In this document: piece by piece, positions 2,256 to 18,397 of the stretch
Position numbering within the stretch: the stretch's first letter is position 1
Layout: each line of letters starts with the position of its first letter
IMG/VR virus record: IMGVR_UViG_3300034782_000062
Location: 64,001-128,000 of that record
DNA: 64,000 nucleotides
Source: a virus
Strand: one strand, 5' to 3'
Translations under genes and position numbers: made by a program
Notes under the pieces: generated by a model
Database searches by the model: none
Seen by the model: only the letters and a program-made list of their open reading frames with translations
Told to the model about the DNA's origin: nothing

Positions 2256-2371
2256 CCTATTGCTTCACAATCAAATCGTCATGAGTCGCCGCAAGGCGGC
2301 TCAACAGTGCGTCAAAGTCTGCACGATTTTGGCGTACTGTTGAGTCACTTTCTGGCTCAAATGGAGGGACA

Positions 2372-4078: not shown

Positions 4079-4136
4079 GACCGCGCAAGCGTCTTCATTC
4101 TACAACGCATCGATCGTCCCCAGGACGGTCGATCCT

Positions 4137-4203
4137 CTCCGGCAAATGTGGTTCAATCGTCCCCAGGATGATTGAGCGGGTTCGACCCCCGCGTCGGAGA
4201 CCG
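4137..4203 (+). ncRNA. tRNA-like element 1 (D-stem-less, tmRNA-TLD-like fold), ends A-CCG
   Basis: Acceptor CTCCGGC/GTCGGAG; 9-nt linker containing GG; 10-bp helix TCAATCGTCC-CCA-GGATGATTGA; T-arm GCGGG-TTCGACC-CCCGC. Confidence 0.7.
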
Positions 4204-4247
4204 GGAAACAACAGCCGGCAATGTATCAAGCCGGCAGGAGGGACAAC

Positions 4248-5261
4248 ATGGCTAACGAGACAAACGGAACCGAGACCACCGAGGAGACCACCGAGGAGAC
4301 CACCGAGAGCACCCCCGAGATCGTTCATGTGATCGATCCCGAGTCTCTCGTCATCAAGTCGATTCTCCCCGGCATTCTCGTCAACCTGACCTGTCATATG
4401 CGGGGTGGGCGCGAGACGAAACGGGAGGACATCAAGGTCCGCAAGGGCAAGGGTGGTAAGAAAACCGAGACCTGGAAAGCAGTCCGCGTCATTTACGACG
4501 AGGACGAGCTAAAGCGGGCAGACAAAGAGCGGGCCAAGGTGCATCGTGACGTCAAAAAGCTCGGCTGCGAAACCGCCGTGGGGCTGATCGTCGCGGCACA
4601 CCGCAAGCAAGAGCTTGCGCAGACCCTCTCCGCTTGCCACAACCGGGTCAAGGCGTTCAACAAGACCGCTCAAACCATGGACCTCGTCTTTCGCTATGGT
4701 CTGTACAGTGTCGAGGGCAACAACAGCGGCACTATCGCGGCTGTCACCGAGCAGCTCGGCGACATCTTGGAGCGCGTCAATGGCGCAGTCCAGGCCGACG
4801 AGCAAGCGATCTTGGAGAACGCCCGCGCCAACCAGCTCGGCGACTTCAAGACCGCGAAAGAGGTCATGAAGGCCCCCCGCGAGCAGCGGATCGCCATCAT
4901 CGCCAAGATTCGGGCGGACCTCGCCCGCAAGGCGATCGCCGAAGCCAAGTCATTCTCCACTCTGCTCCCCGAAGAGGCCGGGCTCGCCGTGACCGACATG
5001 GTCGCTTCGATCCGCAAGTCGGCGACGGCTTGGGTCAAGGCGAGCAAGGAATCCGACGAAGAGTATGAGGCCGCGCTCAACACCGTGGACTCCGACATGA
5101 TCAGCGATATGCAGGCCGCGCTCGTCCAGGCGGCGGCACTCGCGGACCAGTCCGCCGAAGCCGAAACCGAAGCGATCGCCGACCAGGGCGACCTCTTCGG
5201 CGACGGCGAGGTGGAGGAGGAGATCGCGGGCGACGGCGACGACATGGTCGGCGCGATCTAG
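4248..5261 (+). CDS. Hypothetical helical protein, DUF3150-like
   Basis: SD AGGAGGG. The LVNLTCHMRGG...VIYDEDELKR...LGCETAVGLIV...ELAQ pattern resembles DUF3150 by eye only. Confidence 0.6.
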   Translation: MANETNGTETTEETTEETTESTPEIVHVIDPESLVIKSILPGILVNLTCHMRGGRETKREDIKVRKGKGGKKTETWKAVRVIYDEDELKRADKERAKVHRDVKKLGCETAVGLIVAAHRKQELAQTLSACHNRVKAFNKTAQTMDLVFRYGLYSVEGNNSGTIAAVTEQLGDILERVNGAVQADEQAILENARANQLGDFKTAKEVMKAPREQRIAIIAKIRADLARKAIAEAKSFSTLLPEEAGLAVTDMVASIRKSATAWVKASKESDEEYEAALNTVDSDMISDMQAALVQAAALADQSAEAETEAIADQGDLFGDGEVEEEIAGDGDDMVGAI

Positions 5262-5326
5262 CTCGGTTCCGAAACATCGTTACCAACCCGAAACCGGCTC
5301 AATCGTCCCCAGGACGGTCGAGCCGC

Positions 5327-5394
5327 GCACGGCAAAGCAAGGATCGAACGTCCCCAGGACGGTCGAGCGGGTTCGACTCCCGCGCCGTGCCCCA
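5327..5394 (+). ncRNA. tRNA-like element 2 (D-stem-less, tmRNA-TLD-like fold), ends C-CCA
   Basis: Perfect acceptor GCACGGC/GCCGTGC; linker AAAGCAAGGA; helix TCGAACGTCC-CCA-GGACGGTCGA; perfect T-arm GCGGG-TTCGACT-CCCGC; encoded CCA. Confidence 0.8.
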
Positions 5395-5425
5395 AATCAT
5401 CCCCAGGACGAAGCGAACGGGACGC

Positions 5426-5465
5426 AAAAAGCGCGAGGCTGGCTCGACCGGCCCGCGCTTTTTTT
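5426..5465 (+). terminator. Intrinsic terminator, possibly bidirectional
   Basis: AAAAA-GCGCG(A)GGCTGG-CTCGA-CCGGCC-CGCGC-TTTTTTT. Confidence 0.75.
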
Positions 5466-5638
5466 GCCGCTTCACTGAGCATTTCGAGGCGCGGTCTGCG
5501 CCTCACTAGCCTTTTTTTGCGATTCACTAACCATTTCGTTTCTCGGTGGCCCGATTGGGCTCCTCGGCTTGGGACCGTCCCTCCCTCACGGTTGGGGGGT
5601 CCAATCGAGTCACTGAGCAGCGAGAGAGGAGGGACAAC

Positions 5639-6322
5639 ATGATCGAGGTAAAGTGCCCGAAGTGCCGCGAGCGGCTAGCAGGTTATTTGGTGCCATTTGA
5701 AAAGGCATTAGCTTGCCGCTACTGGAACAAGGAAGAGAACGAGGGGGCTGTCATCCTCGCCAAAGGGACGACGATCAAGCTCGTCAAGCCCTGGCGACAG
5801 CAGAAGCGCGATGTGTTCGGCAAGAAGCAAAAGCGGGCTGCCCGCTGGCTCGCCAAGCACGACATCAGAATCGCCACTACGCACCACTACCGCAACGACT
5901 ACTGTGTCGCCGTCAACAACCACGACAACAACTCAGCCGATTCGGCGTGCCTCTGCGACATCCCCGAAGACGTTTACGAGCTTGGCGGACCCGGAGCCCA
6001 GGCTCACATCGACGAGGACCGCGTGCCGCTCCTCGAAATCCATCTGGAGGAGGAGAAAAAGGCCCGCGAGAAGGCTGAGGCTGAAGCCGAGGATCTGGCG
6101 ATCGCTCGTCGCATCGACAAGCAGCTCGCCCGCTTCGAGAAGCTCGGCATCAAGGCTCGCCGCTCGACTGGATTCCCCGGTATGCGTACCCGTTCGATCA
6201 GCATGGACCCCGACGAGATCGAGCGGGTCCTACTAACGCTGGAGCGCTACGTCGAGATGATGAACGAGAAGAAGGCGGCAGAGGCCGAGGGCGAGGCCGA
6301 AGCAGACACGACGACTCACTGA
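5639..6322 (+). CDS. Hypothetical protein with N-terminal CxxC
   Basis: SD AGGAGGGACAAC-ATG; 227-aa ORF. Confidence 0.8.
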   Translation: MIEVKCPKCRERLAGYLVPFEKALACRYWNKEENEGAVILAKGTTIKLVKPWRQQKRDVFGKKQKRAARWLAKHDIRIATTHHYRNDYCVAVNNHDNNSADSACLCDIPEDVYELGGPGAQAHIDEDRVPLLEIHLEEEKKAREKAEAEAEDLAIARRIDKQLARFEKLGIKARRSTGFPGMRTRSISMDPDEIERVLLTLERYVEMMNEKKAAEAEGEAEADTTTH

Positions 6323-6325
6323 GTA

Positions 6326-6391
6326 TTCCAGTTCGTTCCAGTGCCGTTCCAAAACTTTCCCGTCGGGGTGTGAAAGTCCCGACGGGAACCA
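6326..6391 (+). ncRNA. Four phased TTCC boxes followed by a minihelix-ACCA (6358-6391), copy A
   Basis: TTCC at 6326, 6336, 6347, 6357; 12-bp stem TCCCGTCGGGGT/GTCCCGACGGGA (2 G-U pairs); loop GTGAAA; then A-CCA. Confidence 0.7.
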
Positions 6392-6432
6392 ACAGAGCGT
6401 CCCCAGGATGGACGTAAAACAGGAGGGACAAC

Positions 6433-6798
6433 ATGTCTGAGCAAACCGAAGCACAGGGCAAGCCCATCGCCGCCACCTACGAGGGAATGCTCCAACTCGC
6501 CCTCGCTGGACGACGTGGGAGCTTAATGAAGGCTGCGCCGCTCCCCAAGCCCGAGGAGTGCACCGAAGAGGACATCCCTGTTCTTTGCAAGAACATCGAG
6601 TCACTGAACACTTTTATCGGCGAGCTGATCGACCTCGTCGGCGAGAAGGAGCGCAAGCTCAACCTCGCCTTGGAGGCCCACGCCATTCGCACCGAGGGGC
6701 TCGACGACATGCTCGAAACGCTCGACTCGATGCGCGCCCAGATCATCAGCGTGCGCGACGAGAGCGGCGAGCTACTCGAAGAGATGGACGCAGACTGA
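6433..6798 (+). CDS. Hypothetical coiled-coil protein
   Basis: SD AGGAGGG; heptad-like acidic C-terminal half. Confidence 0.8.
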   Translation: MSEQTEAQGKPIAATYEGMLQLALAGRRGSLMKAAPLPKPEECTEEDIPVLCKNIESLNTFIGELIDLVGEKERKLNLALEAHAIRTEGLDDMLETLDSMRAQIISVRDESGELLEEMDAD

Positions 6799-6816
6799 CC
6801 ATCCCCAGGACGAATA

Positions 6817-6883
6817 TTCCAATCTGTTCCGGCGACATTCCAAACCATTCCCGGCAGGGTGTGAGAAGCCCTGGCGGGGACCA
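6817..6883 (+). ncRNA. Four phased TTCC boxes followed by a minihelix-ACCA (6849-6883), copy B
   Basis: TTCC at 6817, 6827, 6838, 6848 (same 10/11/10 spacing as copy A); 12-position stem with one G-G mismatch; loop GTGAGAA; then A-CCA. Confidence 0.7.
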
Positions 6884-6925
6884 CTAAACAACATGCGTCC
6901 CCAGGACGCAGAGAGGAGGGACACC

Positions 6926-7171
6926 ATGAGATGTATGTGCGGAGGCTGCCACGACTGCCTGGCAGCACAAGGCGGATACGACATTCCCGAGGAGTGCCCA
7001 GTATGCGGAAAGCCCAACGCTGACGAGGATGGCGAGCCTGTGTATCCCCAGGACTCGGCATTCTGCTCGGAGCACTGCGCCAACGAGTACGCCGCTGACC
7101 AGCGCTTCCACGACCACAACCTCTACCTCGATTATGTCGAGACTGAGCGGCTCATCGAGGAGACGTCATGA
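6926..7171 (+). CDS. Small Cys-rich, probably Zn-binding hypothetical protein
   Basis: CxC-CxxC, CPVC and CSEHC motifs; SD AGGAGGG. Confidence 0.75.
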   Translation: MRCMCGGCHDCLAAQGGYDIPEECPVCGKPNADEDGEPVYPQDSAFCSEHCANEYAADQRFHDHNLYLDYVETERLIEETS

Positions 7172-7581
7172 CTATCAAAGGACTAATCGACGACATCAAA
7201 GAGGCGAAGGAGTGCGTGCATGATGTCGGAGCGACTCCAGTTGCCGACATCATCACGACTTGCGATCAGGCCGACATGTGTCTTCAGGACGCTCTGATCA
7301 GACTCGAATCCCTGGACGGTGTGCCAACACGGCGGTTTGATGACTGGCTTCTCATCATCAACGAATCATACTCAGACTACGACGTCGAGGATCACGCAGC
7401 GTTCACACTGGCACAGTTCCTCGACGTTCTCATTAACCACTTCTCCATCCCACCGCCCTCGGAACAACCCGACTCTCCTCCCTACTACGAATGCCCATCG
7501 TGCGAGTTTCGCGATCGCGCACAGCCCGCTCGGTGTCCGTGCTGCGGTACTCCAGGTGATTCATTCGAGTTCGAGGAGTGA
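7168..7581 (+). CDS. Hypothetical protein with C-terminal Zn ribbon
   Basis: CPSC...CPCCG; ATGA overlap with the upstream stop. Confidence 0.75.
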   Translation: MTIKGLIDDIKEAKECVHDVGATPVADIITTCDQADMCLQDALIRLESLDGVPTRRFDDWLLIINESYSDYDVEDHAAFTLAQFLDVLINHFSIPPPSEQPDSPPYYECPSCEFRDRAQPARCPCCGTPGDSFEFEE

Positions 7582-7589
7582 GTGACTTT

Positions 7590-7627
7590 CTCTCGCCGCT
7601 GGCCTTGGAGCTGGCAGCGAGGGACCA
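7590..7627 (+). ncRNA. Hairpin ending A-CCA (38 nt)
   Basis: CTCTCGC.GCTGGC paired with GCTGGC.GCGAGGG (13 of 14 positions), then ACCA; followed by the palindrome and an SD. Confidence 0.55.
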
Positions 7628-7658
7628 GCGGCGTCCCCAGGACGCGAGGAGGGATAAA

Positions 7659-8036
7659 ATGCTTTTTCCAAGAAGACGACGAGTCGTGACGGACATCAAG
7701 TCCGTCTCTCTGGAGGCTGGCGCCAAGCAACTCGCTCGCAAGCTCACCGAGATGACGTGGTGCGGCTGTAATGGGTTTCGTCTTGGGGATTATCTCTTCC
7801 TCAATGACTCGACGAGCCCGGACGGAGCCCAGGAGTACGCTGTCGTTCACGAGCCGAGCATGCTTCAGTGCGAGAGCATCACGTTTAGTTGGTGCAGCCG
7901 CGCCAAAGCACTCGAATACATCCTCAAGACGATTCGCGGCGAGTTCAAGCCGTGGCGCGAGCCCACCCTGCCCAAGCCTGGCCAGCTCATCATCCAGACC
8001 CAGGACGAACACGGGACCTGCGTTCACTGCGCATAG
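7659..8036 (+). CDS. Hypothetical phage protein
   Basis: SD AGGAGGG before ATG 7659, preferred over GTG 7578. Confidence 0.75.
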   Translation: MLFPRRRRVVTDIKSVSLEAGAKQLARKLTEMTWCGCNGFRLGDYLFLNDSTSPDGAQEYAVVHEPSMLQCESITFSWCSRAKALEYILKTIRGEFKPWREPTLPKPGQLIIQTQDEHGTCVHCA

Positions 8037-8045
8037 GAGGCTCAA

Positions 8046-8363
8046 GTGAGACAAGCAAAACGAAACCTCATGGGCAGGCAAGAATGCGCGACCTGTGAGC
8101 AGGTCATCGAACCCCGTCAAGGCGAGGAATACCACGGCGCCTGCAAATGCTCCACTTGGCACTACTACGAAGAGGGCGGCTGGTATCATCTGGAATTTAT
8201 GGCGCACGTTTCGCGCCTTCGCGAGCGAGCCGAAAGCCATATCAGCCGCAGGACCACCACCGTTTTCGATGTTTGCTCAGAGCACGGGCAGATGCTCGAC
8301 AACGTCCAACACATGGAATGGCTCGTCCTCGCCGTCATGGACGAGCTGGAAGAGTGGAGATAA
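8046..8363 (+). CDS. Hypothetical protein (Cys motifs)
   Basis: SD AGGAGG, GTG start. Confidence 0.7.
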   Translation: MRQAKRNLMGRQECATCEQVIEPRQGEEYHGACKCSTWHYYEEGGWYHLEFMAHVSRLRERAESHISRRTTTVFDVCSEHGQMLDNVQHMEWLVLAVMDELEEWR

Positions 8364-8392
8364 TCGTCCCCAGGACGAAGAAAGGAGATGAT

Positions 8393-8647
8393 ATGCCCCA
8401 AACCGAGCCGGTCGAAGCCGATTCTGTATGGACACAGTTCGGCGAAGCGATCGGAGCTTTCGTCAATCACCCGGACTACTACAAGGGTCGCTGGTTCGTT
8501 CAGTGGCGCGGCGGTCGTCGGGTCTGCTCGAATCACACCACCGCTTCCGCATGGTGCAAGTACCTGCGCCGCAACTTCAACGACGGCTGGACCGCAACCA
8601 TCGGTCGGGCCGACCCTCTGCCGGGATTCCCTCGGCGGCTCCATTAA
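8393..8647 (+). CDS. Hypothetical protein
   Basis: Palindrome plus SD AAGGAG immediately upstream of ATG 8393. Confidence 0.7.
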   Translation: MPQTEPVEADSVWTQFGEAIGAFVNHPDYYKGRWFVQWRGGRRVCSNHTTASAWCKYLRRNFNDGWTATIGRADPLPGFPRRLH

Positions 8648-8660
8648 CCTTTAACACCTT

Positions 8661-8696
8661 CTCTGTTGCAGCAGCTTTCGCGTGCAACAGGGACCA
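8661..8696 (+). ncRNA. Class II hairpin-ACCA (cap GCAGCTTTCGCG)
   Basis: 10-bp stem CTCTGTTGCA/TGCAACAGGG, then A-CCA. Confidence 0.65.
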
Positions 8697-8759
8697 GTTT
8701 TTTTGTCAGAAGTCAGCAACTATGTTCGTCCTGTACAATGGACGAAGAAAGGAGCAGCC

Positions 8760-9233
8760 ATGCTTGCAGCATTGGTCGCAGAAGAAATCAAGCGTATGGA
8801 GCACGAGGACCAGTGCCCATGCCTCCCTTGCTCGATCAACTCGCTCCTACGTGACGTCGGTCGCTGGAAGCACATGCACGGGGAGTGCGACTGCCCGGTC
8901 TGTGAGCGCGGAATCGAGGCGATCACCAAGCACGGTAACGAGCTTGAGCGCATGAAGGCCGAGTACGAAAAGCGTCTTGAAGACGCAGACACAGACGACA
9001 TCGTCATCATCACACCTGAGCGGCACGCGCAGGCCGAAGAAGCTCGAAAGCTCATCCCCGTCATGGAAGCACAGATGGCGATGCTCGTCGCCACAATCGC
9101 TGAGCTTCTCGAAGACTTCCACCTCACTCTGAGAGCAGCCCACGCGGCTTTCGACGCCATCGCTGGCGAGCGGCAAGAGCCCGAGGCTGTTGTCGTTCGA
9201 CTTCAGCCTCGCCACGACTTCAGCATCAACTAG
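8760..9233 (+). CDS. Hypothetical protein, Cys/His-rich N-terminus and coiled coil
   Basis: SD GAAAGGAGCAGCC-ATG. Confidence 0.75.
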   Translation: MLAALVAEEIKRMEHEDQCPCLPCSINSLLRDVGRWKHMHGECDCPVCERGIEAITKHGNELERMKAEYEKRLEDADTDDIVIITPERHAQAEEARKLIPVMEAQMAMLVATIAELLEDFHLTLRAAHAAFDAIAGERQEPEAVVVRLQPRHDFSIN

Positions 9234-9256
9234 CTACCAATAGACAAACAAAAAAT

Positions 9257-9293
9257 CCTCAAGACGGTTAGCTTTCGCGCCGCTTGAGGACCA
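9257..9293 (+). ncRNA. Class II hairpin-ACCA (cap TTAGCTTTCGCG)
   Basis: CCTCAAG(A)CGG/CCGCTTGAGG, then A-CCA. Confidence 0.6.
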
Positions 9294-9509
9294 TGGTTCT
9301 CGACGCTGGAGGCGTCGGTATGCCGAGTTATCACGAATGAAGGCCAGGGTGGTAACGCCCCCATGTCACAGACGGGAGAAAGGCATGAAAAGGCCGACCG
9401 AGAAGGGAAGGCGTGGATGAAAGCCATCGAACCGGTGTAGATGGTGAGTAAGGTACGGCTTCGAGAATCATGTTTTTAGCGTCTACAGGACGCAGAGAGG
9501 AGGGATACC

Positions 9510-9938
9510 ATGAAGAAACGACAGTATGAAATGTATGTTGGGTTTGGAGTGCCCGGCGGACACTGGAACACCAAGTTCATCGAAGCCTCAACGCCCGAGG
9601 AGGCAGAAGAGAAGCTGCTCGAAAGACTGGACCGCGAAGGTGTTGAGCACGTCTCGTTTGTCGGCGTCTACCATGAGGGCGACATCATCGAGGACGGCGA
9701 AGACGATGAAGACGAGGACTGGAGCGCCTACTGCGACTACGAACTGAGCGACAACCAAAAGCAGTTCGTTCGGGACGCCGAGGAGCAGGGGCTCGAAATC
9801 AATTGGGACTATTCCGGTCGAGGCATGTTCGGAAAGTGCTGCCCCGCCGTCATGGTCGATGGGCTCGGCGAGTTTCACACGACAGCAAACTACGAGTCCG
9901 ATAGCATGGGGCTCGGGTTCGTCATCTACGCCCGGTAA
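9510..9938 (+). CDS. Hypothetical acidic phage protein
   Basis: SD AGGAGGG. Confidence 0.8.
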   Translation: MKKRQYEMYVGFGVPGGHWNTKFIEASTPEEAEEKLLERLDREGVEHVSFVGVYHEGDIIEDGEDDEDEDWSAYCDYELSDNQKQFVRDAEEQGLEINWDYSGRGMFGKCCPAVMVDGLGEFHTTANYESDSMGLGFVIYAR

Positions 9939-9970
9939 TAATTCATCCCCAGGACTGAGTAATACGTTTT

Positions 9971-10005
9971 CTCTCGTTGGTCAGCTTTCGCGCAGCGAGG
10001 GACCA
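9971..10005 (+). ncRNA. Class II hairpin-ACCA (cap GTCAGCTTTCGCG)
   Basis: 9-bp stem CTCTCGTTG/CAGCGAGGG, then A-CCA. Confidence 0.65.
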
Positions 10006-10047
10006 TCGCGTCGCAGAATCTTTCGCGTCGCAGAGAGGAGGGATACC

Positions 10048-10743
10048 ATGTCTGATATGAAGTGCCCCAAGTGCGGGTACGACGGCGGTTGGTTCAGCAT
10101 TGAAGCGACATCCGTATTCCAAGTCGCCCCTGACGGCACTGACGATTATGGCGACGTCGAGTGGAACGATAACTCATCGTGCCAGTGCTCCGAGTGCTAT
10201 CACGAGGGAACGGTTATCGAGTTCACGCCAGTTCTTCCGCGAGTCAAAGAGAAGCTAATCGAACTGGCTGGCTACGTTGACTCGGCTGACATCCAGCTCA
10301 TCGACGCGATCCGGGGCATCGCCGACCACTGCGAATACAAAACCGAGAATCAGGTTTTCGATGAGCTGCTAAAACTCGGTCACGAGATCGTGGACGCCGA
10401 GTCGTTCGACGAACTGACGGTACTCGATCTGTTCATGTGCGCCCACTGGCTCACCCGATGCCAGTATCACGAGATCATTCTCTGCTACGACGATCGGAGC
10501 TGGGACAACGTCTATGTCCGCGCACCGTCCGCCGAGCAAGCGCGCCTCGTCGCCTACGACGAGAATTCTGCTCCCTACGCTTTCCATGTTCAAGAAATCC
10601 CCGAGACTGAGCTTTCCGACTACGCGATCGACATCGGAGAGCAGCCCTTCGACTGGAAAGAGGACCAAACTCAGCGTGCATTCGAGGAGGCCGGGAAGCT
10701 CGCTGACAGCGCCGTGGCAGATGCGCATCAGGAGGACGACTGA
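10048..10743 (+). CDS. Hypothetical protein with N-terminal Zn ribbon
   Basis: CPKC...CQCSEC; SD AGGAGGG. Confidence 0.75.
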   Translation: MSDMKCPKCGYDGGWFSIEATSVFQVAPDGTDDYGDVEWNDNSSCQCSECYHEGTVIEFTPVLPRVKEKLIELAGYVDSADIQLIDAIRGIADHCEYKTENQVFDELLKLGHEIVDAESFDELTVLDLFMCAHWLTRCQYHEIILCYDDRSWDNVYVRAPSAEQARLVAYDENSAPYAFHVQEIPETELSDYAIDIGEQPFDWKEDQTQRAFEEAGKLADSAVADAHQEDD

Positions 10744-10934
10744 TGGCAACACAGGACAGATGGAACAAGTGGGGCCAGCATTGGCTTGCCACGCTGGAGG
10801 AGATGGAAGAGAACGCCGAGTCACCCGACGAGGAGCTGACCACCTTCGAGCGCAACCTCAAAGAGCAGTTGCAAACTATGGTCGTCCGTCCCCAGGACGA
10901 GGAAGGAAAGGACCATGACACCGACCGAGATTGA
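10743..10934 (+). CDS. Small hypothetical protein
   Basis: TGATG coupling to the upstream gene; overlaps the next gene by 20 nt. Confidence 0.55.
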   Translation: MATQDRWNKWGQHWLATLEEMEENAESPDEELTTFERNLKEQLQTMVVRPQDEEGKDHDTDRD

Positions 10935-11229
10935 AATGCTCAAGCTCCACGACAAGTTCCTCGCATTTATTAAGCGAGGCAGAATCAAGTGGGAAATGCT
11001 GCCCATTAAGGACCACCCAGAGGCGATGGGCTACACCGGCACCTACGGACGATCTCCTCTCTGGCGTTTCGTTGTCGCTTCATTCGACATCGAGAACCAG
11101 GGCTTCCCCCCCGGATCCAAGGGCTATGATGGCACCGCGACCGATCTTAGCAGCGGGCGCGTCATCCATTTGCCCCGCGAGACCGCTACCGCTCTCGGCC
11201 AGGACGCTGAAAAGGCGTTTATTCAGTAA
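10915..11229 (+). CDS. Hypothetical protein
   Basis: Palindrome plus purine-rich RBS upstream. Confidence 0.7.
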   Translation: MTPTEIEMLKLHDKFLAFIKRGRIKWEMLPIKDHPEAMGYTGTYGRSPLWRFVVASFDIENQGFPPGSKGYDGTATDLSSGRVIHLPRETATALGQDAEKAFIQ

Positions 11230-11259
11230 AAATCCCCAGGACGAAGAAAGGAGCTGACA

Positions 11260-11598
11260 TTGCGCGTCTGGTATCCAATCCCCCCGCTCTGCCTCGACGG
11301 CCCGAGGCTCACGGGCGTTCACAACGAGATTCACGCCATTAACAACATCATCCTCGACCCCGAGAAGGGCTATCAACATCACCCCGAGGTCAACCGCTGG
11401 CGCGGCTTCCTACCCGCGCTCGCTGCCTATCACGACCTCGTCGTCCAAGAATCCTGGCGACGAGGCTGGAAGATGGGCACCAACCACAAGACACCACTCT
11501 TTCACGACGGCCCGGTCGTGTGGCCCGAATTCATCGAGCCGATCGAGGTCATGCGTGCCAAGCTCGCAGCAAAGTGGGCCGCAAAACTCGCCGCGTAA
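11260..11598 (+). CDS. Pyrimidine-dimer DNA glycosylase / endonuclease V (DenV-like) family protein
   Basis: MRVW..PP..L....L...HNEIH...KGY.HHPE..RWRG...L..YH...V.E...RG...H.TPL pattern; TTG start after AAGGAG. Confidence 0.7.
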   Translation: MRVWYPIPPLCLDGPRLTGVHNEIHAINNIILDPEKGYQHHPEVNRWRGFLPALAAYHDLVVQESWRRGWKMGTNHKTPLFHDGPVVWPEFIEPIEVMRAKLAAKWAAKLAA

Positions 11599-11618
11599 TC
11601 CCCAAGACGAACATACAT

Positions 11619-11655
11619 CCTCGGCGTGGTCAGCTTCCGCGCACGCCGAGGACCG
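11619..11655 (+). ncRNA. Class II hairpin-ACCG (cap GTCAGCTTCCGCG)
   Basis: Perfect 10-bp stem CCTCGGCGTG/CACGCCGAGG, then A-CCG. Confidence 0.6.
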
Positions 11656-11664
11656 AGGTACGAA

Positions 11665-11958
11665 ATGAAAGAACGTTTTTTAATCGTGACGGACGGTGGC
11701 GGCGAGGACTTTTACTATCACCTCGTCAAGCCGAGCATCTGGGAAGAGTACGGACGGGAGTGCAAAAGGACGAAGCACTACTCTCGTGGCTCGGTCATGT
11801 CTGCGGTTAATGACCGGCTCTTTCCTAACGGTGATGTCTACGAGGCGATCATAGAGAATGAAAGCCCCGACGAAGACTTCGCCTTTTTCACAAACGCCTT
11901 CGAGGTTTTTCGGTTCTGCGAGGAGCATGGGCTGAAGATTGTCGGTGGCATCGGATAA
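11665..11958 (+). CDS. Hypothetical protein
   Basis: SD GAGGT before ATG 11665. Confidence 0.7.
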   Translation: MKERFLIVTDGGGEDFYYHLVKPSIWEEYGRECKRTKHYSRGSVMSAVNDRLFPNGDVYEAIIENESPDEDFAFFTNAFEVFRFCEEHGLKIVGGIG

Positions 11959-11990
11959 AATCCGTCCCAAGGACGGGGAAAGGAGCAGCC

Positions 11991-12803
11991 ATGACTGTTT
12001 TTTACTGGACCGTCATCTACTCGCACCGGCACGGGACCGACGCCTGGCCGGTGTTCGCTCATCAGTGCAAAGACCCTGAACGCGGCCCGACCGAGGAAGA
12101 GGTCATCGCCATCATTGGCGAGGATCTTTACGAGCCAGACAGCGAGGACGAATGGATCGAAATCGGCGGTCGCCAGACGATCGAGCTTCCCGATCACAAC
12201 GAGCTTCACTTCTGGCGCAAGACAGCCGCCGAGCTTTACGGGCTCGCCAGCGAGAGCACCATCGAGGAGCACCTGAGCGAGTTGCAGCAGCGACGATGCA
12301 CTGCAGCCCTCAACGATGAAGTCGCCGAGGGTATTGAGGACGAACCGACACCCGTGCCGACTCACTCCTTGCCACCCACCGAGACTTGGTACACCTGGCG
12401 CATCCTGGCGACGGTTGAGGGAGAAACAACCCGAAGACTCCTTGTTCCATGGTCTGACCCTCACAAGCACGAGTTCGCCTTCGATTTTATCTACAAGACG
12501 CCCGAAGAAGCCCGCGAGGGCCTGAAGACAATGGGCGCAGAAGACGACGCCGAAGAAGAGGGCTGGATTCTCTGCAAGAAGACCCTGATCCCCATCGAGC
12601 GCCTTCAGGGTGAGCCAACCCCTCGACCTCTCCCACAGACGATGCCTTCGTCCGAAGACATTTACCGAGAGCGAGCCCGAGAGTTTTTCCGACACGAGCT
12701 GGATGAGAACGACTGGGACATCGACGACGAACCCCAGGTCTCAGAGAGCAACGACGGAGCTTACGTCTCCATCTGGCGTTGGTTCCCAGCCGAAGACGAG
12801 TAA
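11991..12803 (+). CDS. Hypothetical acidic protein, probably multi-module
   Basis: SD GAAAGGAGCAGCC-ATG. Confidence 0.75.
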   Translation: MTVFYWTVIYSHRHGTDAWPVFAHQCKDPERGPTEEEVIAIIGEDLYEPDSEDEWIEIGGRQTIELPDHNELHFWRKTAAELYGLASESTIEEHLSELQQRRCTAALNDEVAEGIEDEPTPVPTHSLPPTETWYTWRILATVEGETTRRLLVPWSDPHKHEFAFDFIYKTPEEAREGLKTMGAEDDAEEEGWILCKKTLIPIERLQGEPTPRPLPQTMPSSEDIYRERAREFFRHELDENDWDIDDEPQVSESNDGAYVSIWRWFPAEDE

Positions 12804-12822
12804 CCTGTCATCCCACCATCAT

Positions 12823-12857
12823 CTCTGTCCCCGGCTGATACCCGAGGACAGGGACCA
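12823..12857 (+). ncRNA. 35-nt minihelix-ACCA (class I)
   Basis: CTCTGTCCCCGG/CCGAGGACAGGG (11 of 12 paired); 7-nt loop CTGATAC; then A-CCA. Confidence 0.65.
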
Positions 12858-12890
12858 AAATTTCGTCCCCAGGACGAGTAAGGAGGGACC

Positions 12891-13091
12891 ATGAAAGCGC
12901 GTTGCCCGAACGACACGAACCACAGAAGGTTCATCACCGTGACGCATGTCACCGAGGACTGGGTTGTCGATGAGAACGGCGAGTACGTGGAATCTGCCGA
13001 CTCTGGTGTCGGCGAAGTTGTCCACGGCCCCGACCCCGACAACACCTGGACCTGTAACGAGTGCGGTGCCGAGGCAGTCGTCACTGACTAG
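12891..13091 (+). CDS. Small Zn-ribbon hypothetical protein
   Basis: CP...H and C..CG motifs; SD AGGAGGG. Confidence 0.75.
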   Translation: MKARCPNDTNHRRFITVTHVTEDWVVDENGEYVESADSGVGEVVHGPDPDNTWTCNECGAEAVVTD

Positions 13092-13103
13092 AAAGGAGCA
13101 GCT

Positions 13104-13580
13104 ATGCCCAAGTTCACTGTACGAGTCCATGAGACACACCTGGCCGACTACGTGGTCGAGGCCGAAAATCCACAGGACGCCATCGAATCCGTCAGGAACG
13201 GTAACGGCGAGCTTGCCGACGACTCGGTGGAGTTTCTGCATCTTGCTGACGAGGCGAACTGGGCAGTTTTCGAGGGAGACCAGTACGACCTCGAAGGCCC
13301 GGAACTATCGAACGATGCTGTCTGGTCAGCAGCGCACGCTTGCGAACAGCTTGAGGAAGAAATCCTGAAGATGCTCGGTGCAAAGCGCGGAACTTCCGAG
13401 GTGGAGCAAGAGCTGGTCGAGCACATGGACGAGCTTGTTCACGACGTCGCCTCCAAGGAGGGAAGCGACGTCAACAACGGTGGCCTCTCCGAGCAGCTCG
13501 AATGGCTCTGGAACGAGCTTGGTGCCGAGCACGCTCGAACGACCATCATTGAGCACGTCAAGCAGTTGAGGGCGCCATGA
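13104..13580 (+). CDS. Hypothetical acidic protein
   Basis: SD GAAAGGAG. Confidence 0.75.
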   Translation: MPKFTVRVHETHLADYVVEAENPQDAIESVRNGNGELADDSVEFLHLADEANWAVFEGDQYDLEGPELSNDAVWSAAHACEQLEEEILKMLGAKRGTSEVEQELVEHMDELVHDVASKEGSDVNNGGLSEQLEWLWNELGAEHARTTIIEHVKQLRAP

Positions 13581-14164
13581 GCTACTGCGAATGGTGCGGA
13601 AACAAACCCACCGCCGAGAAGGGCTCGTGCCCCGACTGCTTCCATCTACTCGATGGACCACTCCTCCCGGCCAAGGATGCCTTTGATCTCATCAACGACC
13701 GATGGGGAACCTGCTGCAAGGGAATCATCCTGACGATGATAACTCACATCCGGTCCCCGAACACGGCTGGCATCCCCGAGGGCGCGGACATCGACCTTTC
13801 CGACGCCGAGGTCGAAGAGCGAATCGACCGATCGCATCTGTTCATCCATCCCAAGCATGACGCTGGTGTTTCCAACAATGGCACCATGGGAGTCGAGTGC
13901 GGCATCAACCTCTACTGCGGCTTCGCTCGCTGCTACTGGATATTCGACGGCGGCGACAACACCGAGTCATTCGAGTACGGACCCGAAATCCCCTACTCGA
14001 TCGGCGAGAAACGTTTTTTCGAGGCCGTGGAAACCATCCTCGATGCAGCAGCGGACGAAGCCGAGGGCCTCGGCTACGCGCAGTGCTCCATGTGCGGCGA
14101 TCACTACCTCGCCGATGCTGGTCTCTACTGCGAGTGCCAGGTCCAACGCTCGATCGAGCCGTAA
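13577..14164 (+). CDS. Hypothetical protein with Cys clusters at both termini
   Basis: CxxC...CxxC at the N-terminus and CxxC...CxC at the C-terminus; ATGA overlap. Confidence 0.75.
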   Translation: MSYCEWCGNKPTAEKGSCPDCFHLLDGPLLPAKDAFDLINDRWGTCCKGIILTMITHIRSPNTAGIPEGADIDLSDAEVEERIDRSHLFIHPKHDAGVSNNGTMGVECGINLYCGFARCYWIFDGGDNTESFEYGPEIPYSIGEKRFFEAVETILDAAADEAEGLGYAQCSMCGDHYLADAGLYCECQVQRSIEP

Positions 14165-14177
14165 GGAGGAGGGAGCC

Positions 14178-14423
14178 ATGAAACTCAAACACTGCGTCCT
14201 GGCGATGGACACATCTGGCGACGAAATCGGCTGCATCCCGATGCCTCACGACACCGTTTTTCTCGCCGTCACCGCATGGACGACCAAGTACGAGCTGGCG
14301 CTTCTCACCAGCGGCTCTCACACCGCTCTTCTCCAGCGCTACCACGACAGCGGCGAGAAGTTCATCTGGGAGGGCCGCGAAGTCGGCGGCTTCGAGGTCG
14401 TCAGCGAGCCCATCATCGAATGA
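14178..14423 (+). CDS. Small hypothetical protein
   Basis: SD AGGAGGAGGG. Confidence 0.7.
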   Translation: MKLKHCVLAMDTSGDEIGCIPMPHDTVFLAVTAWTTKYELALLTSGSHTALLQRYHDSGEKFIWEGREVGGFEVVSEPIIE

Positions 14424-14432
14424 ATAAATCCT

Positions 14433-14467
14433 GCCCTGCGATGTGTGAAAAGCATCTCAGGGCACCA
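14433..14467 (+). ncRNA. 35-nt minihelix-ACCA (class I)
   Basis: GCCCTGCGATGT/GCATCTCAGGGC (11 of 12 paired); 7-nt loop GTGAAAA; then A-CCA; 7 nt before the SD. Confidence 0.65.
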
Positions 14468-14485
14468 TAAGGGAAAGGAGGTGAG

Positions 14486-14782
14486 ATGGCGGAACGCCGA
14501 TCAAGGCGAAGAAAAAAGAAGACTGCCGCAGACTTAAGAAGGCACGCGATTGTCTCGGCTTCAGTCCGCTACGGCATCGACCTCGACGACGAAGGGAGGG
14601 AAGAAATCCTGGAGATGATCAGGGCAGGAACAAGAAACAAAGACTGCGCCTGCATCGAACGCCAGAGCAGAAAGCGAACCCTCTGGCGTATTCGCTTTCG
14701 CAACCAAGTCTGCGGAGTGGTCTACGACTCGGACTTTCACGAGCTGGTCACGTTCATTCCGAAAGACGACCCACGGCTGTAA
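14486..14782 (+). CDS. Basic hypothetical phage protein
   Basis: SD AAGGAGGTG. Confidence 0.75.
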   Translation: MAERRSRRRKKKTAADLRRHAIVSASVRYGIDLDDEGREEILEMIRAGTRNKDCACIERQSRKRTLWRIRFRNQVCGVVYDSDFHELVTFIPKDDPRL

Positions 14783-14897
14783 CAACAGCCACAACATCAA
14801 CCGACTTCACAGAATCACGAAGTCAAAGTCGACGTTGGTTACACCTAACGTCTACGTGCTGCCGCGAAGCGCGAGCAGTACGAAAGGAGGCAGATCC

Positions 14898-15953
14898 ATG
14901 GGAGGTCAAGCGTTCAAGGGTCCAAGGCTCAACGGCTTCTTCCTCGACCCCGACGAGATCGTTCTGGTCGGAGGCAACGGCCCAAACGACGTCCCCAAGA
15001 CGGCTGAACTTGCACACCTGTACGACAAGCGCGTCCACGACAAGCCTGACGAGGGCATGGTCCGCAACATGATGGTCTACGGCGTCATCGAGGCCGTGAA
15101 GGTCCAGAAGATCGTCAGCGACGACGGAGAGAACCGCGCCTACGTCATCGACGGCCGTGGTCGAGTCATCGCAGCTCGCGAGGCGAACGTGCGTCTCCGC
15201 AGGGAGGGCAAGGAGCCGATCCTGGTTCCGATCGTCCTCAAGACCGGTGACCCGTCCAAGCTCTTCGGCATCCTCATCTCGGCGAACGAGAACCGTCGAG
15301 ACGACACCCCCATCGCCAAGGCTGAGAAGATCGCTCAGTTCATGGATATGGGGCGCGACGAGGAGGCGGCGGCGAACGCCTACGGTATCACCGTCGCCAA
15401 CGTGCGGCAGCTCCTCAAGCTGCTGGACCTCGCCCCGAAGGTGCAGACCATGATCAAGAAGGGCACCCTCTCGGCGTCGGCTGCCACTCAGCTCGTCAAG
15501 CTCCCACATGCGGAGCAGGTCACGAAGGCCGAGGAGGTCATCGCGAGCGGCGTCAAGCCGACGGCTCGGAATATCAGCCGCTCTACCGGAAACCGCCCGG
15601 TCACTCCATCGAAGCGCGTCGTGCAGAAGCTCGTCGCCCTCGACAAGAAGCCCGAAATCGCGGAGAAGTACGACTCCTTCTGGGGCGCCCTCCAGTTCAT
15701 GCTGGGCCAGGTAACCCTGGAGGACGTCGGCCTCGCCGAGGTCGTCGCGGAGCTGAAGGCCAAGAAGAAGAAGGCCAAGAAGGGCAACGCGAAGGGCTCG
15801 AAGAAGGGCAACTCCAAGCAGCAAACGTTGCCGCTCGACGAGAAGGGCAAGAAGTCCCCGGCCAAGACCACCTCCAAGACCAAGACCCCGCCGAAGAAGG
15901 GTCCGACCATCGCGAAGAAGAAGGGATCCGCGAAGAAGGACGCCGCCGCCTAG
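14898..15953 (+). CDS. ParB/Spo0J-like protein (ParB-N + HTH + Lys-rich tail)
   Basis: YVIDGRGRVIAA (GxxRxxA CTP-binding motif), ISANENRRD, AAANAYGITVANVRQLL helix-turn-helix; histone-H1-like K/A/P tail. Confidence 0.8.
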   Translation: MGGQAFKGPRLNGFFLDPDEIVLVGGNGPNDVPKTAELAHLYDKRVHDKPDEGMVRNMMVYGVIEAVKVQKIVSDDGENRAYVIDGRGRVIAAREANVRLRREGKEPILVPIVLKTGDPSKLFGILISANENRRDDTPIAKAEKIAQFMDMGRDEEAAANAYGITVANVRQLLKLLDLAPKVQTMIKKGTLSASAATQLVKLPHAEQVTKAEEVIASGVKPTARNISRSTGNRPVTPSKRVVQKLVALDKKPEIAEKYDSFWGALQFMLGQVTLEDVGLAEVVAELKAKKKKAKKGNAKGSKKGNSKQQTLPLDEKGKKSPAKTTSKTKTPPKKGPTIAKKKGSAKKDAAA

Positions 15954-15994
15954 TCCGTTCTGGACGACATCACCATCTTCAAGACGAAAGACAG

Positions 15995-16057
15995 ACCAGG
16001 GTTTTCCAGATCATCTGGAGGACGGTGACCGGGGTTCGACTCCCCGGCCTGGTCCCA
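15995..16057 (+). ncRNA. tRNA-like element 3, ends C-CCA overlapping the SD of the next gene
   Basis: T-arm CGGGG-TTCGACT-CCCCG; acceptor ACCAGG(G)/(G)CCTGGT with 6 of 7 pairs; internal hairpin TTTCCAGA-TCA-TCTGGAGG. Confidence 0.55.
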
Positions 16058-16068
16058 AGGAGGTCTCA

Positions 16069-16389
16069 ATGTCATCAGATGACAAAGTTCCAATACCGAA
16101 ACTTTCTGTACATCAGTGGGCAGCTCTCCTCCGCATGAAGGACTGGAACTGGGCATTCCCAAAGAATGGACACAGAGCCAACGGCCTACTACGGACGATT
16201 CGGAGTTTGCAACGCCTCGGTCTCGCAGCGTGGCTTGAACCGGGTGATACCAACCACTACGGATCGACGGTAGACGGCTATGGCTGGGACCTGACACCAG
16301 AAGGATACGCTCTTGCTCGTCAAGAGCACAGGCGCGAGCACGAGAACCCCAAGGTGCGCCGGGTGCTCTACCGGCTACGCCTCCCATAG
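16069..16389 (+). CDS. Hypothetical protein, possible winged helix
   Basis: LRTIRSLQRLGL...WDLTPEG pattern; SD AAGGAGG. Confidence 0.65.
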   Translation: MSSDDKVPIPKLSVHQWAALLRMKDWNWAFPKNGHRANGLLRTIRSLQRLGLAAWLEPGDTNHYGSTVDGYGWDLTPEGYALARQEHRREHENPKVRRVLYRLRLP

Positions 16390-16427
16390 GCATATAACTT
16401 CGTCCCCAGGACGAGAAAGGAGCAGCC

Positions 16428-16880
16428 ATGTTCGTCATGAAGTGTGACGTCTGCGGCAGAACAATCGAGATCGACCGGGACAACCCCGGCGACTCGATCA
16501 GAGAGCAAGTCAAGGGCGACTGGAGACAAGTCGAAGACTTCGACGGCAACACCTTCGACATCTGCCACGAGTGCAACAAGAAAGGCCACGTTCCCGCAAT
16601 CCTCAAGATGGAGGAGAACGGCTACTGGGAGCGGACCAGCACTCACTCACTCCTTTTCCACAGCCACGACAGTGTTCCCTCTCCCACTCTCTTCGGCGTC
16701 AACGTTCACGTCGTCGCGATCGAGGTGAAAAAGCGCGACCACCGCCGCGCCATAAACCAAGAGTCCCAGGACGAGTTGAACTGTGTCATTAGAGGCACCG
16801 GCTCCGAAGAGAGCGAGCTGCTGACAACAGAAATCGATGGGAAGCCGCACATCGTCTGGGTGGCGCCCCATGAAGTCTAA
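16428..16880 (+). CDS. Hypothetical protein with Zn ribbon
   Basis: CDVC...CHEC; palindrome plus SD upstream. Confidence 0.75.
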   Translation: MFVMKCDVCGRTIEIDRDNPGDSIREQVKGDWRQVEDFDGNTFDICHECNKKGHVPAILKMEENGYWERTSTHSLLFHSHDSVPSPTLFGVNVHVVAIEVKKRDHRRAINQESQDELNCVIRGTGSEESELLTTEIDGKPHIVWVAPHEV

Positions 16881-17484
16881 CATCCCAGCACCGCACGGAT
16901 ACGCCTTCGTGCTCAACAGCAACACCAGAAAGGGATCGCGCTTTCACCTGGCCGACGCGAGCGGTCGTCCCAAGTGCGGAACCAAGGTAGACGTCAGCGC
17001 CTTGGAGCGCGAATGGGAGATACCCGTCAGCTACGACCCCTGCAAAAGGTGTTTCCCGAAAGGAATCAATCCAATGAACGACGCCAATCATATGACTCCA
17101 GAAGAGTTCGACCGGGTCATGCTTCTCTCGTCCAACGGCGAGATTGAGTGTGATGGCATCGTCATCATCCCAACGGACAGGGTCGATCAGTCGGGCTACC
17201 GAATCATGGATTTTGTCGTCACCGTGACGCCGGATCGCAAGCCTGTGGGCCGCATCAGCGAACTCGGCATGAACGCGCACGACGTCTTCGAGCTGACCGA
17301 CATGCGCGGCACTCGGACTCGGTCCATCGGCGACGAGCCGGTACGGCTCCCCGAGTGGAAGTGCGACTGCCTTCAGCGCAGCGGCTTCCTCTATATCACT
17401 CCATCCTGGGGACGGATCAGGGTCAGCCACGACACGGCGACGGTCCACATCCGTCTCATCAGCAACGACGAGGCCCAGAAATGA
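16870..17484 (+). CDS. Hypothetical protein
   Basis: Overlap-coupled ORF containing H...CG...C.RC. Confidence 0.65.
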   Translation: MKSNIPAPHGYAFVLNSNTRKGSRFHLADASGRPKCGTKVDVSALEREWEIPVSYDPCKRCFPKGINPMNDANHMTPEEFDRVMLLSSNGEIECDGIVIIPTDRVDQSGYRIMDFVVTVTPDRKPVGRISELGMNAHDVFELTDMRGTRTRSIGDEPVRLPEWKCDCLQRSGFLYITPSWGRIRVSHDTATVHIRLISNDEAQK

Positions 17485-18311: not shown

Positions 18312-18362
18312 CACAGGCGTTCATCCCCAGGACGCCCGTGGGATCGTGACCACCACTAATAA

Positions 18363-18397
18363 GTCCTGGTCACTCTGAGAAAGTGGCCAGGGCTCCA
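18363..18397 (+). ncRNA. 35-nt minihelix-TCCA (class I) directly upstream of the cas12m SD
   Basis: 12-bp stem GTCCTGGTCACT/AGTGGCCAGGGC (2 G-U pairs); 7-nt loop CTGAGAA; then T-CCA running into AGGAGG. Confidence 0.7.

What the first reader, a model, noticed from the sequence alone, without database searches (positions are those of the whole stretch)
8661..11655. Class II: four hairpins with a conserved YAGCTTYCGCG cap and ACCA/ACCG tail
Elements at 8661, 9257, 9971 and 11619 have different 9-10 bp stems but an almost invariant 11-nt cap, which can form GC-UUYC-GC on an asymmetric internal loop, and the same tail. A constant loop on variable stems is typical of a protein-binding RNA motif.
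Basis: seen in the sequence. Interest (0 to 1): 0.7.

Follow-up and report, generated by a model that had tools for sequence, protein, structure and literature searches.

The report
CCA-tailed capped hairpins punctuating phage operon
Four RNA hairpins with one shared cap and a tRNA-like CCA tail sit between early genes of a 183-kb uncultured phage, and the same capped hairpin follows dozens of genes in related phages. They most likely mark where host tRNA-processing enzymes cut or finish the long early message, but no cutting has been shown.

Summary
The 11-nt cap occurs exactly four times in the 182,770-bp virus record (0.17 expected in the window). All four copies are on the + strand, each at the apex of a 10-12 bp hairpin that ends in ACCA or ACCG.

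The four are not isolated. An 8-nt core of the cap, two G-C pairs closing a UUYC tetraloop, caps at least 30 further intergenic hairpins in five related metagenomic phages. In those, the stems covary (11 of 14 pairs compensatory). The CC tail lies a fixed 13-15 nt from the loop. The stem starts a median 7 nt after a stop codon.

G.U pairs outnumber A.C mismatches 47 to 8, so the fold belongs to the sense RNA. Real tRNAs and D-armless tRNA mimics occupy equivalent slots in the same operons. The phage's own tRNA genes end in the same NCCA/NCCG alternation. There is no adjoining U-tract, and no Rfam family matches.

Best reading (about 0.5): minimal tRNA-acceptor-end mimics that direct host RNase P and/or 3'-trimming enzymes to punctuate the early polycistronic mRNA. 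The conserved cap would be a still unassigned recognition element.

This scan noted similar CCA-ended minihelices in other phage genomes. None has been tested experimentally.

The parts
8660..8696 (+). Class II hairpin II-1. 11-bp stem with one U.G pair, 12-nt cap region 8671-8682, tail CCA 8694-8696. A run of seven T follows at 8698-8704. Lies 12 nt after the stop codon 8645-8647.
9256..9293 (+). Class II hairpin II-2. 8 bp, a bulged A, then 4 bp, with the cap G-C pairs and UUUC loop at 9271-9278. Tail CCA 9291-9293. Lies 22 nt after the stop codon 9231-9233 and is followed by a 216-nt gap without a credible ORF.
9970..10005 (+). Class II hairpin II-3. 10-bp stem with two U.G pairs, so it folds only on the + strand. 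Cap 9980-9992, tail CCA 10003-10005. Preceded by a copy of the 13-bp palindrome at about 9946-9954.
11618..11655 (+). Class II hairpin II-4. Perfect 11-bp stem, cap with a UUCC loop at 11629-11641, tail CCG 11653-11655 that overlaps the ribosome-binding site of the gene starting at 11665.
6357..6391 (+). Same scaffold (hairpin plus CCA tail) with a different, purine-rich cap. Followed by the palindrome and a ribosome-binding site. Shown as context.
6848..6883 (+). Same scaffold with a purine-rich cap and ACCA tail. Shown as context.
7589..7627 (+). Same stem base and ACCA tail as class II, with a different cap. Shown as context.
12822..12857 (+). Same stem base and ACCA tail as class II, with a different cap. 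Shown as context.
14432..14467 (+). Hairpin plus ACCA placed directly before a ribosome-binding site. Shown as context.
18362..18397 (+). Hairpin plus UCCA fused to the ribosome-binding site of the Cas12-like gene. Shown as context.
5320..5394 (+). tRNA-like element in an equivalent intergenic slot. It has a 7-bp acceptor stem, a true T arm and a C-CCA end, and no D arm or anticodon loop.
   Evidence: read directly; ARAGORN calls at the equivalent slot in L123, L128 and L132
15993..16054 (+). tRNA-like element with an acceptor stem, a T arm and a CCA end, abutting a ribosome-binding site.

Best explanation
The four hairpins are this phage's version of a clade-wide intercistronic RNA element. 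Each is a 13-15-layer helix in the sense transcript, capped by two G-C pairs and a UUYC tetraloop, and followed directly by CC(A/G). I propose that they mimic the acceptor end of a tRNA (a minihelix). On this reading they recruit the host's tRNA-maturation enzymes to cut the long early polycistronic mRNA into defined pieces.

The proposed enzymes are RNase P at the 5' foot of the stem and/or an endonuclease just 3' of CCR. The 3' cut would be followed by exonuclease trimming that stops at the CC next to the duplex. The hairpin would stay on one product as a stabilising end.

Shown here: the fold, its strand, its covariation, the fixed loop-to-CC distance, the purine-CC-purine tail, the placement after stop codons, and the sharing of slots with tRNAs and tRNA-like elements.

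Inferred, not shown: transcription, any cleavage, and which enzyme acts. The invariant cap is a specific recognition determinant. It might substitute for the T loop or be the site of an unknown factor, and its partner is unknown.
For: 1. The cap core recurs on the + strand in intergenic gaps of five related loci: L123 x6, L124 x11, L125 x4, L130 x5, L131 x5. All copies fold as hairpins.
2. Covariation on 18 in-register elements: 87% of cells pair, against 71% in shuffles and 40-46% when the partner is slid. 11 of 14 pairs show compensatory change, and the cap pairs are invariant.
3. Native arm pairs fold at -24.3 kcal/mol against -15.6 for chimeric pairs.
4. There are 47 G.U pairs against 8 A.C mismatches on the + strand.
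5. The CC tail lies 13-15 nt from the loop in 30 of 34 elements as scored, CCA in 24 and CCG in 6; one of the four unscored elements, L131 8002, reads CCG at 15 nt by eye. A tRNA has 13 nt from the T loop to C74 (textbook).
6. The base before CC is always a purine, 31 of 31. This matches the RCCA motif used by bacterial RNase P (PMC12710915 abstract).
7. Hairpin-loop substrates made of acceptor stem, T stem and loop are cleaved by E. coli RNase P RNA, and tetraloop variants are still cut, though less well (PMC11143913).
8. The phage's 31 tRNA genes end in NCCA (about 10) or NCCG (about 9), the same alternation as the hairpin tails.
9. tRNA-like elements or tRNAs fill equivalent slots: window 5320-5394 and 15993-16054, L123 9880-9955, and L130 14350-14422, which ends in ACCG.
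10. The stem starts a median 7 nt after the stop codon. The two bases after CCR are A/U-rich.
11. E. coli RNase E cuts 1-3 nt after the encoded CCA of tRNA precursors (PMC2190699 abstract).
Against: - No T loop is present; the cap is unlike GTTCRANYC.
- The base before CC always pairs with the base 5' of the stem (31 of 31), so there is no free discriminator base.
- The helix is 1-2 layers longer than acceptor stem plus T stem.
- Replacing the T loop by a tetraloop lowers RNase P efficiency and shifts the cut site in model substrates.
- The strict conservation of a thermodynamically unremarkable tetraloop is not explained by tRNA mimicry.
- The host is unknown, so it is unknown whether its RNase P uses the CCA contact.
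- There are no RNA-end data of any kind.
- The G-rich 3' arm alone could bias the base before CC toward purine.
Confidence: 0.5

Rival explanations
1. The hairpins are binding sites for a dedicated RNA-binding factor, encoded by the phage or the host, that reads the invariant cap. The factor would control stability, translation or antitermination of each early cistron independently of tRNA enzymes.
For: The cap is invariant across six phages while the stems covary. The UUYC loop is not, to my knowledge, one of the specially stable tetraloops, so stability alone does not explain its conservation. This window's four copies share an extra conserved YA...G flank.
Against: No candidate protein emerged: early genes scanned with Pfam and PHROGs show no RNA-binding or nuclease domain. 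Hairpins with other caps, or with a GNRA loop, occupy the same slots on the same scaffold and tail, so the cap is not essential to the slot's function. The idea does not explain the fixed CC(A/G) tail.
Confidence: 0.2
2. The hairpins are passive structural punctuation. On this view they are very stable hairpins that block 3' exonucleases or insulate neighbouring cistrons, with no specific enzyme recognition. The closest parallels are REP elements or the T4 intercistronic UUCG hairpins.
For: The stems are GC-rich, -14 to -37 kcal/mol, and begin 2-12 nt after the stop codon in 22 of 31 cases.
Against: A passive barrier does not need an invariant loop, a fixed loop-to-tail distance or an invariant CC.
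Confidence: 0.12
3. The hairpins are transcription terminators or attenuators without a U-tract. They could act with the 13-bp palindrome 5-7 nt downstream as a regulated stop before each gene.
For: They are strong hairpins at gene ends. In relatives the palindrome follows at a fixed 5-7 nt in 18 of 20 cases. II-1 is followed by seven T.
Against: The terminator scan does not call them. The only + strand terminator it calls in the region, at 5437-5453, has an adjoining T run, and by eye a second T-run hairpin follows by about 5520. No phage RNA polymerase or sigma factor was detected that might use other signals. In this window the class II hairpins are uncoupled from the palindrome yet keep the tail. 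The T run of II-1 starts 4 nt after the stem.
Confidence: 0.1
4. The element acts at the DNA level on the opposite strand. There the cap reads as the very stable GCGAAAGC-type mini-hairpin, which could serve as a replication, priming or hairpin-promoter signal.
For: The complement of both cap variants is a GNRA tetraloop closed by C-G. From memory, d(GCGAAAGC) is the exceptionally stable DNA mini-hairpin described by Hirao. Mean folding energy is similar on the two strands, -24.3 against -23.4 kcal/mol.
Against: There are 47 G.U pairs on the + strand against 8 positions that would be G.U on the - strand. II-3 does not fold on the - strand (z = -0.6). The orientation is always that of the genes. 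The tail is strand-specific.
Confidence: 0.05

Closest known systems
Acceptor-stem/T-arm hairpin ('minihelix') model substrates of bacterial RNase P, and natural hairpin substrates such as pre-4.5S RNA (review PMC11143913; RCCA motif, PMC12710915)
   Same: A single helix of about 12-14 layers followed by purine-CC-A. Such hairpins are cut at the 5' foot of the stem by RNase P RNA. Tetraloop-capped versions are still substrates.
   Different: These hairpins are natural, repeated after many genes inside an mRNA, and have no T loop. Their base before CC is always paired, and they carry an invariant cap unrelated to tRNA. Cleavage has not been shown.
tRNA punctuation of animal mitochondrial transcripts, and the t-elements and acceptor-stem-like stem-loops of plant mitochondrial mRNAs (PMC4394434; Forner et al. 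2007, PMC1920247)
   Same: tRNAs, partial tRNA mimics and simple stem-loops between coding regions act as signals for RNase P and RNase Z and so define mRNA ends. The same graded series of tRNA, tRNA-like element and hairpin is seen in these phage operons.
   Different: This is a bacteriophage setting with an encoded CCA, which in my understanding argues against RNase Z. The elements are hairpins rather than cloverleaf remnants, and they have a conserved non-tRNA cap.
RNase III processing hairpins between the early genes of phage T7 (R0.3-R1.3), cited from memory
   Same: One conserved structured element per intercistronic gap of an early polycistronic transcript, cut by a host enzyme, leaving a stabilising hairpin on the product.
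   Different: T7 sites are about 20 bp of interrupted duplex with no CCA tail. These helices are 13-15 layers, too short for a canonical RNase III site.
C(UUCG)G intercistronic hairpins of phage T4 (Tuerk et al. 1988, cited from memory)
   Same: A recurring tetraloop-capped hairpin in phage intercistronic regions.
   Different: UUCG is an intrinsically hyperstable loop, whereas UUYC is not. T4 hairpins have no fixed length and no CCA tail.
Lambda-type boxB (nut) hairpins bound by the N protein
   Same: A constant loop on a stem, read by a protein.
   Different: boxB has a 5-bp stem and a GNRA-like pentaloop, and occurs once or twice per genome next to boxA. These have 13-15 bp, occur once per gene and carry a CCA tail.

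Membership tests
tRNA / tRNA-like element (t-element) | T arm: a 5-bp stem closed by the GTTCRANYC loop | tested here: not met
   The cap is two G-C pairs plus UUYC. ARAGORN finds no tRNA in the window and Rfam gives no hit at the four sites.
tRNA / tRNA-like element (t-element) | 3' end of the form N73-CCA directly after the acceptor helix | tested here: met
   ACCA x3 and ACCG x1 in this window. CCA 24 and CCG 6 of the 34 family members as scored; a seventh CCG (L131 8002) was read by eye. The same A/G alternation occurs in the phage's own tRNA genes.
tRNA / tRNA-like element (t-element) | Unpaired discriminator base and a 7+5 bp coaxial helix, giving 13 nt from loop to C74 | tested here: not met
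   The base before CC pairs with the base 5' of the stem in 31 of 31 elements. The loop-to-CC distance is 13-15 nt, mostly 14-15.
RNase P hairpin substrate (functional class) | A helix of at least 7 bp followed by a purine-CCA motif | tested here: met
   the base before CC is a purine in 31 of 31.
RNase P hairpin substrate (functional class) | Actual cleavage at the 5' foot of the stem | not testable with these tools
   Needs an in vitro assay or RNA-end mapping.
Intrinsic (Rho-independent) terminator | A U-tract starting 0-2 nt after a GC-rich stem | tested here: not met
   None of the four is called by the scan, which does call the site at 5437-5453. II-1 has seven T, but they start 4 nt after the stem.
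RNase III processing site (T7 early type) | About two helical turns (about 20 bp) of duplex | tested here: not met
   Stems are 10-15 bp.
Any curated Rfam family | A match at the gathering score, or any match with E below 5 | tested here: not met

The most novel reading that the evidence does not exclude
A clade of very large uncultured phages writes its early operons as mRNA punctuated after almost every gene by a minimal tRNA-acceptor mimic. The invariant tetraloop cap would be a new, non-T-loop handle. It would recruit either host RNase P and 3'-trimming enzymes or a phage factor. That would make this a bacterial-virus counterpart of mitochondrial tRNA punctuation and a new RNA family.
Probability: 0.4. 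Interest if true: 0.75.

Novelty: new variant of a known kind. Interest (0 to 1): 0.6.

Why it matters
If the reading is right, phages can split a long message into separate mRNAs without encoding a nuclease. They would do so by inserting 35-nt look-alikes of a tRNA end.

That would extend tRNA punctuation, known from organelles, to bacterial viruses. It would add natural mRNA-embedded hairpins to the short list of non-tRNA RNase P substrates. It would also supply compact, portable processing and insulator parts.

The invariant cap on covarying stems is a clean entry point for finding its reader. The family is absent from Rfam, so these elements currently go unannotated in phage genomes.

Tried and rejected
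- A loose cap-plus-tail pattern scan of IMG/VR returned only single chance hits.
- A stricter consensus pattern gave one locus, which scored poorly with the model.
- The window-specific extended cap, scanned in JGI metagenome contigs, gave 47 single hits. Only one reached 24 bits with the model, and it is not a real hairpin. The window-type variant was therefore not found elsewhere.
- Single-protein searches for relatives in IMG/VR failed, as did searches of GenBank phages. Relatives were reached only through homologues of the protein encoded at 4248-5261.
- My first hairpin-plus-CCR scanner was too permissive, returning 385 hits on the + strand. I replaced it with a strict one.
- I considered complementarity between this cap and the purine-rich caps of the other class as a possible loop-loop kissing contact. 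I dropped it because only one of three such caps in the window would pair.
- I considered hairpin promoters of the N4 virion-polymerase type for the 13-bp palindrome. No phage RNA polymerase was detected, and the palindrome centre is inverted in relatives, which fits a symmetric DNA site.
- No phage-encoded CCA-adding enzyme, RNase P RNA or RNase III was found.
- Literature searches for the cap sequence and for tRNA punctuation in phages found no description.
Full report
**Observation**

The window is bases 64001-128000 of a 182,770-bp IMG/VR virus record estimated to be 95% complete. The exact 11-nt cap occurs four times in the window against 0.17 expected, and 0 of 100 shuffles reach four. 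It occurs four times in the whole record, always on the + strand and always at a hairpin apex.

Each element folds into one hairpin of -14.7 to -22.6 kcal/mol, with z-scores of -2.4 to -4.8. The stems differ in sequence but share a pyrimidine-rich start and a purine-rich end, followed by CCA in three cases and CCG in one. II-1 and II-3 contain U.G pairs that become A.C mismatches on the other strand. As a result II-3 does not fold on the - strand.

**Context in the window**

- The four hairpins lie in a run of small + strand genes with strong ribosome-binding sites, at about 4-18.4 kb. Each follows a stop codon.
- The region has no sigma-70-like promoter on the + strand. The scan calls only one + strand terminator with an adjoining T run, at 5437-5453; by eye a second T-run hairpin follows it, by about 5520.
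- A 13-bp palindrome is highly over-represented in the genome and sits just before most early ribosome-binding sites.
- At least six more intergenic hairpins in the region have the same CCA tail but other caps.
- Three elements have a real T arm, a 7-bp acceptor stem and a CCA end, but no D arm or anticodon loop.

**Relatives**

No cultured phage is similar. Homologues of the protein encoded at 4248-5261 led to ten metagenomic loci with the same early-operon layout.

In five of them the 8-nt cap core recurs on the + strand in intergenic gaps: L123 x6, L124 x11, L125 x4, L130 x5 and L131 x5. About 0.6 per locus and strand is expected by chance. All copies fold as hairpins of -11 to -37 kcal/mol, with the core forming two G-C pairs around a UUUC or UUCC tetraloop.

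A covariance model built from 34 elements found further members with small cap variants. In these the closing C-G pair and an NUYC loop persist, while the second pair changes to C-G, U.G or G.U. In the phage of this window the model finds only the four class II sites plus one weak hit.

The window's copies are a lineage-specific variant. They carry two or three extra 5' bases before the core, and that variant was not found elsewhere.

**Is the fold selected, and on which strand?**

- On 18 elements that are in register without gaps, 87.3% of cells pair. This compares with 70.7% after shuffling (0 of 500 shuffles reach it) and 40-46% when the partner is slid. 11 of 14 pairs show changes on both sides, and the two cap pairs never vary.
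- Each 5' arm folds far better with its own 3' arm than with foreign arms, -24.3 against -15.6 kcal/mol. For the four window elements the native partner beats 32 or 33 of the 33 foreign partners.
- On the + strand there are 47 G.U pairs against 8 A.C-type mismatches. Every copy is co-oriented with the genes.
- The functional form is therefore the sense RNA.

**Geometry and tail**

- The CC lies 13 nt (1 element), 14 nt (11) or 15 nt (18) after the loop. The triplet is CCA in 24 elements and CCG in 6 as scored. One of the four elements my tail-finder did not resolve, L131 8002, reads CCG at 15 nt by eye. The other three lack the tail at this distance.
- The base before CC is always A or G, and it always pairs with the base 5' of the stem, in 31 of 31 elements. 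The next two bases after the tail are mostly A or U.
- The stem starts a median 7 nt after the upstream stop codon, and within 2-12 nt in 22 of 31 cases. In relatives the palindrome follows the tail by 5-7 nt in 18 of 20 cases.
- In this window the class II hairpins are separated from the palindrome, or lie downstream of it, yet they keep the tail. The tail therefore belongs to the hairpin.

**Link to tRNA**

The phage carries 31 tRNA genes and a tmRNA. Their 3' ends read NCCA in about 10 genes, NCCG in about 9 and NCCT in 3. This is the same A/G alternation seen in the hairpin tails.

ARAGORN calls tRNA-like genes at the slot equivalent to window 4137-4205 in L123, L128 and L132. It also calls a tRNA-Glu ending in ACCG inside the early operon of L130. 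Full tRNAs, reduced tRNA mimics and plain CCA-tailed hairpins are thus interchangeable occupants of the gaps between early genes.

Published work provides the parallels:
- Hairpins made of acceptor stem, T stem and loop are cut by bacterial RNase P RNA. A tetraloop in place of the T loop still allows cutting, with lower efficiency and a shifted site (PMC11143913).
- A 3' RCCA motif drives recognition by RNase P (PMC12710915).
- E. coli RNase E cuts 1-3 nt after the encoded CCA of tRNA precursors (PMC2190699).
- In organelles, tRNAs, t-elements and acceptor-like stem-loops define mRNA ends (PMC4394434; PMC1920247).
- From memory, not checked here: RNase T trimming stops at a 3' CC next to a duplex. 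That would explain why CC is invariant while the third base is free to be A or G.

**Mechanism proposed**

I propose that the early region is transcribed by host RNA polymerase as long polycistronic RNA. No phage polymerase or sigma factor was detected. Each hairpin with its purine-CC-purine tail would be read as a tRNA acceptor end. RNase P could cut at the stem foot. Alternatively or additionally, an endonuclease could cut in the A/U-rich bases after the tail, and exonucleases could then trim back to CC.

The result would be discrete mRNAs bearing a stable terminal hairpin. The phage encodes no CCA-adding enzyme, RNase P RNA or RNase III, so host enzymes would have to do this.

Not shown: transcription, any cut, and the enzyme. 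The invariant cap is not a T loop and not a specially stable loop. It must be read by something, and I cannot say what.

**Rivals**

- A dedicated cap-binding factor is the most serious rival, and it is compatible with the main reading.
- A passive barrier does not explain the invariant loop, the fixed distance or the CC.
- Ordinary termination is unlikely without an adjoining U-tract, because the phage has U-tract terminators elsewhere.
- A DNA-level role on the other strand, where the cap is a GNRA-type mini-hairpin, is contradicted by the wobble asymmetry.

**Novelty**

No Rfam family matches, and the searchable literature holds no description. Earlier notes of this scan describe CCA-ended minihelices in other phage genomes, and tRNA mimics, a second hairpin class and the palindrome in this genome. 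I used these as leads and re-derived what I cite here.

The kind of element, tRNA-like processing signals and RNase P hairpin substrates, is known. New here are its use as dense punctuation of a phage early operon and the conserved non-tRNA cap.

Noticed in passing
window 1078-18324 (+), and genome-wide: A 13-bp palindrome with a TCC-NNN-GGA core is the most over-represented word in the genome. It sits 5-20 nt before most early ribosome-binding sites. Its centre reads CCA on the + strand here but TGG or TGA in the relatives, which fits a symmetric DNA-binding site better than an RNA loop.
   Followed up: partly
window 9294-9509: A 216-nt gap after hairpin II-2 has no credible ORF, only peptides of 11-27 aa. 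It could encode a small RNA.
   Followed up: no
window 10007-10040: An 11-nt direct repeat occurs twice between hairpin II-3 and the ribosome-binding site. It resembles a degenerate right half of the palindrome.
   Followed up: no
window 5430-5520: Two canonical hairpin-plus-T-run terminators in tandem, the first looking bidirectional, lie right after a tRNA-like element. In the scan of 4-19 kb the site at 5437-5453 is the only + strand hairpin with an adjoining T run.
   Followed up: partly
window 15993-16054: A third tRNA-like element with a 7-bp acceptor stem, a 6-bp T stem with a typical T loop, and a CCA end that runs directly into a ribosome-binding site. It gives a weak Rfam tRNA-Sec hit of 22.7 bits.
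   Followed up: partly
window 18410-20146 and about 20200-20900: A Cas12f/TnpB-like ORF (Pfam TNB domain) is preceded by a CCA-tailed hairpin fused to its ribosome-binding site.
   Followed up: no
G000 166145-182765 (outside the window): A block of 31 tRNA genes plus a tmRNA. About two thirds encode NCC at the 3' end, with A or G as the next base in roughly equal numbers.
   Followed up: partly
L124 17150-17200 and L131 8625-8670: Two orthologous capped hairpins are followed by a conserved stretch of about 45 nt with no ORF. This may be another conserved intergenic RNA.
   Followed up: no
L126 16921, 17457, 17859: Three paralogous CCA/CCG-tailed hairpins share nearly the same stem but have three different caps, with UUUC, GAAA and a 6-nt loop. 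This is the reverse of the pattern in the window and shows that caps can be exchanged on one scaffold.
   Followed up: partly
window 11260-11598: The gene just upstream of hairpin II-4 encodes a pyrimidine-dimer DNA glycosylase (Pfam Pyr_excise, E = 3e-19). Homologues occur in the early operons of several relatives.
   Followed up: no
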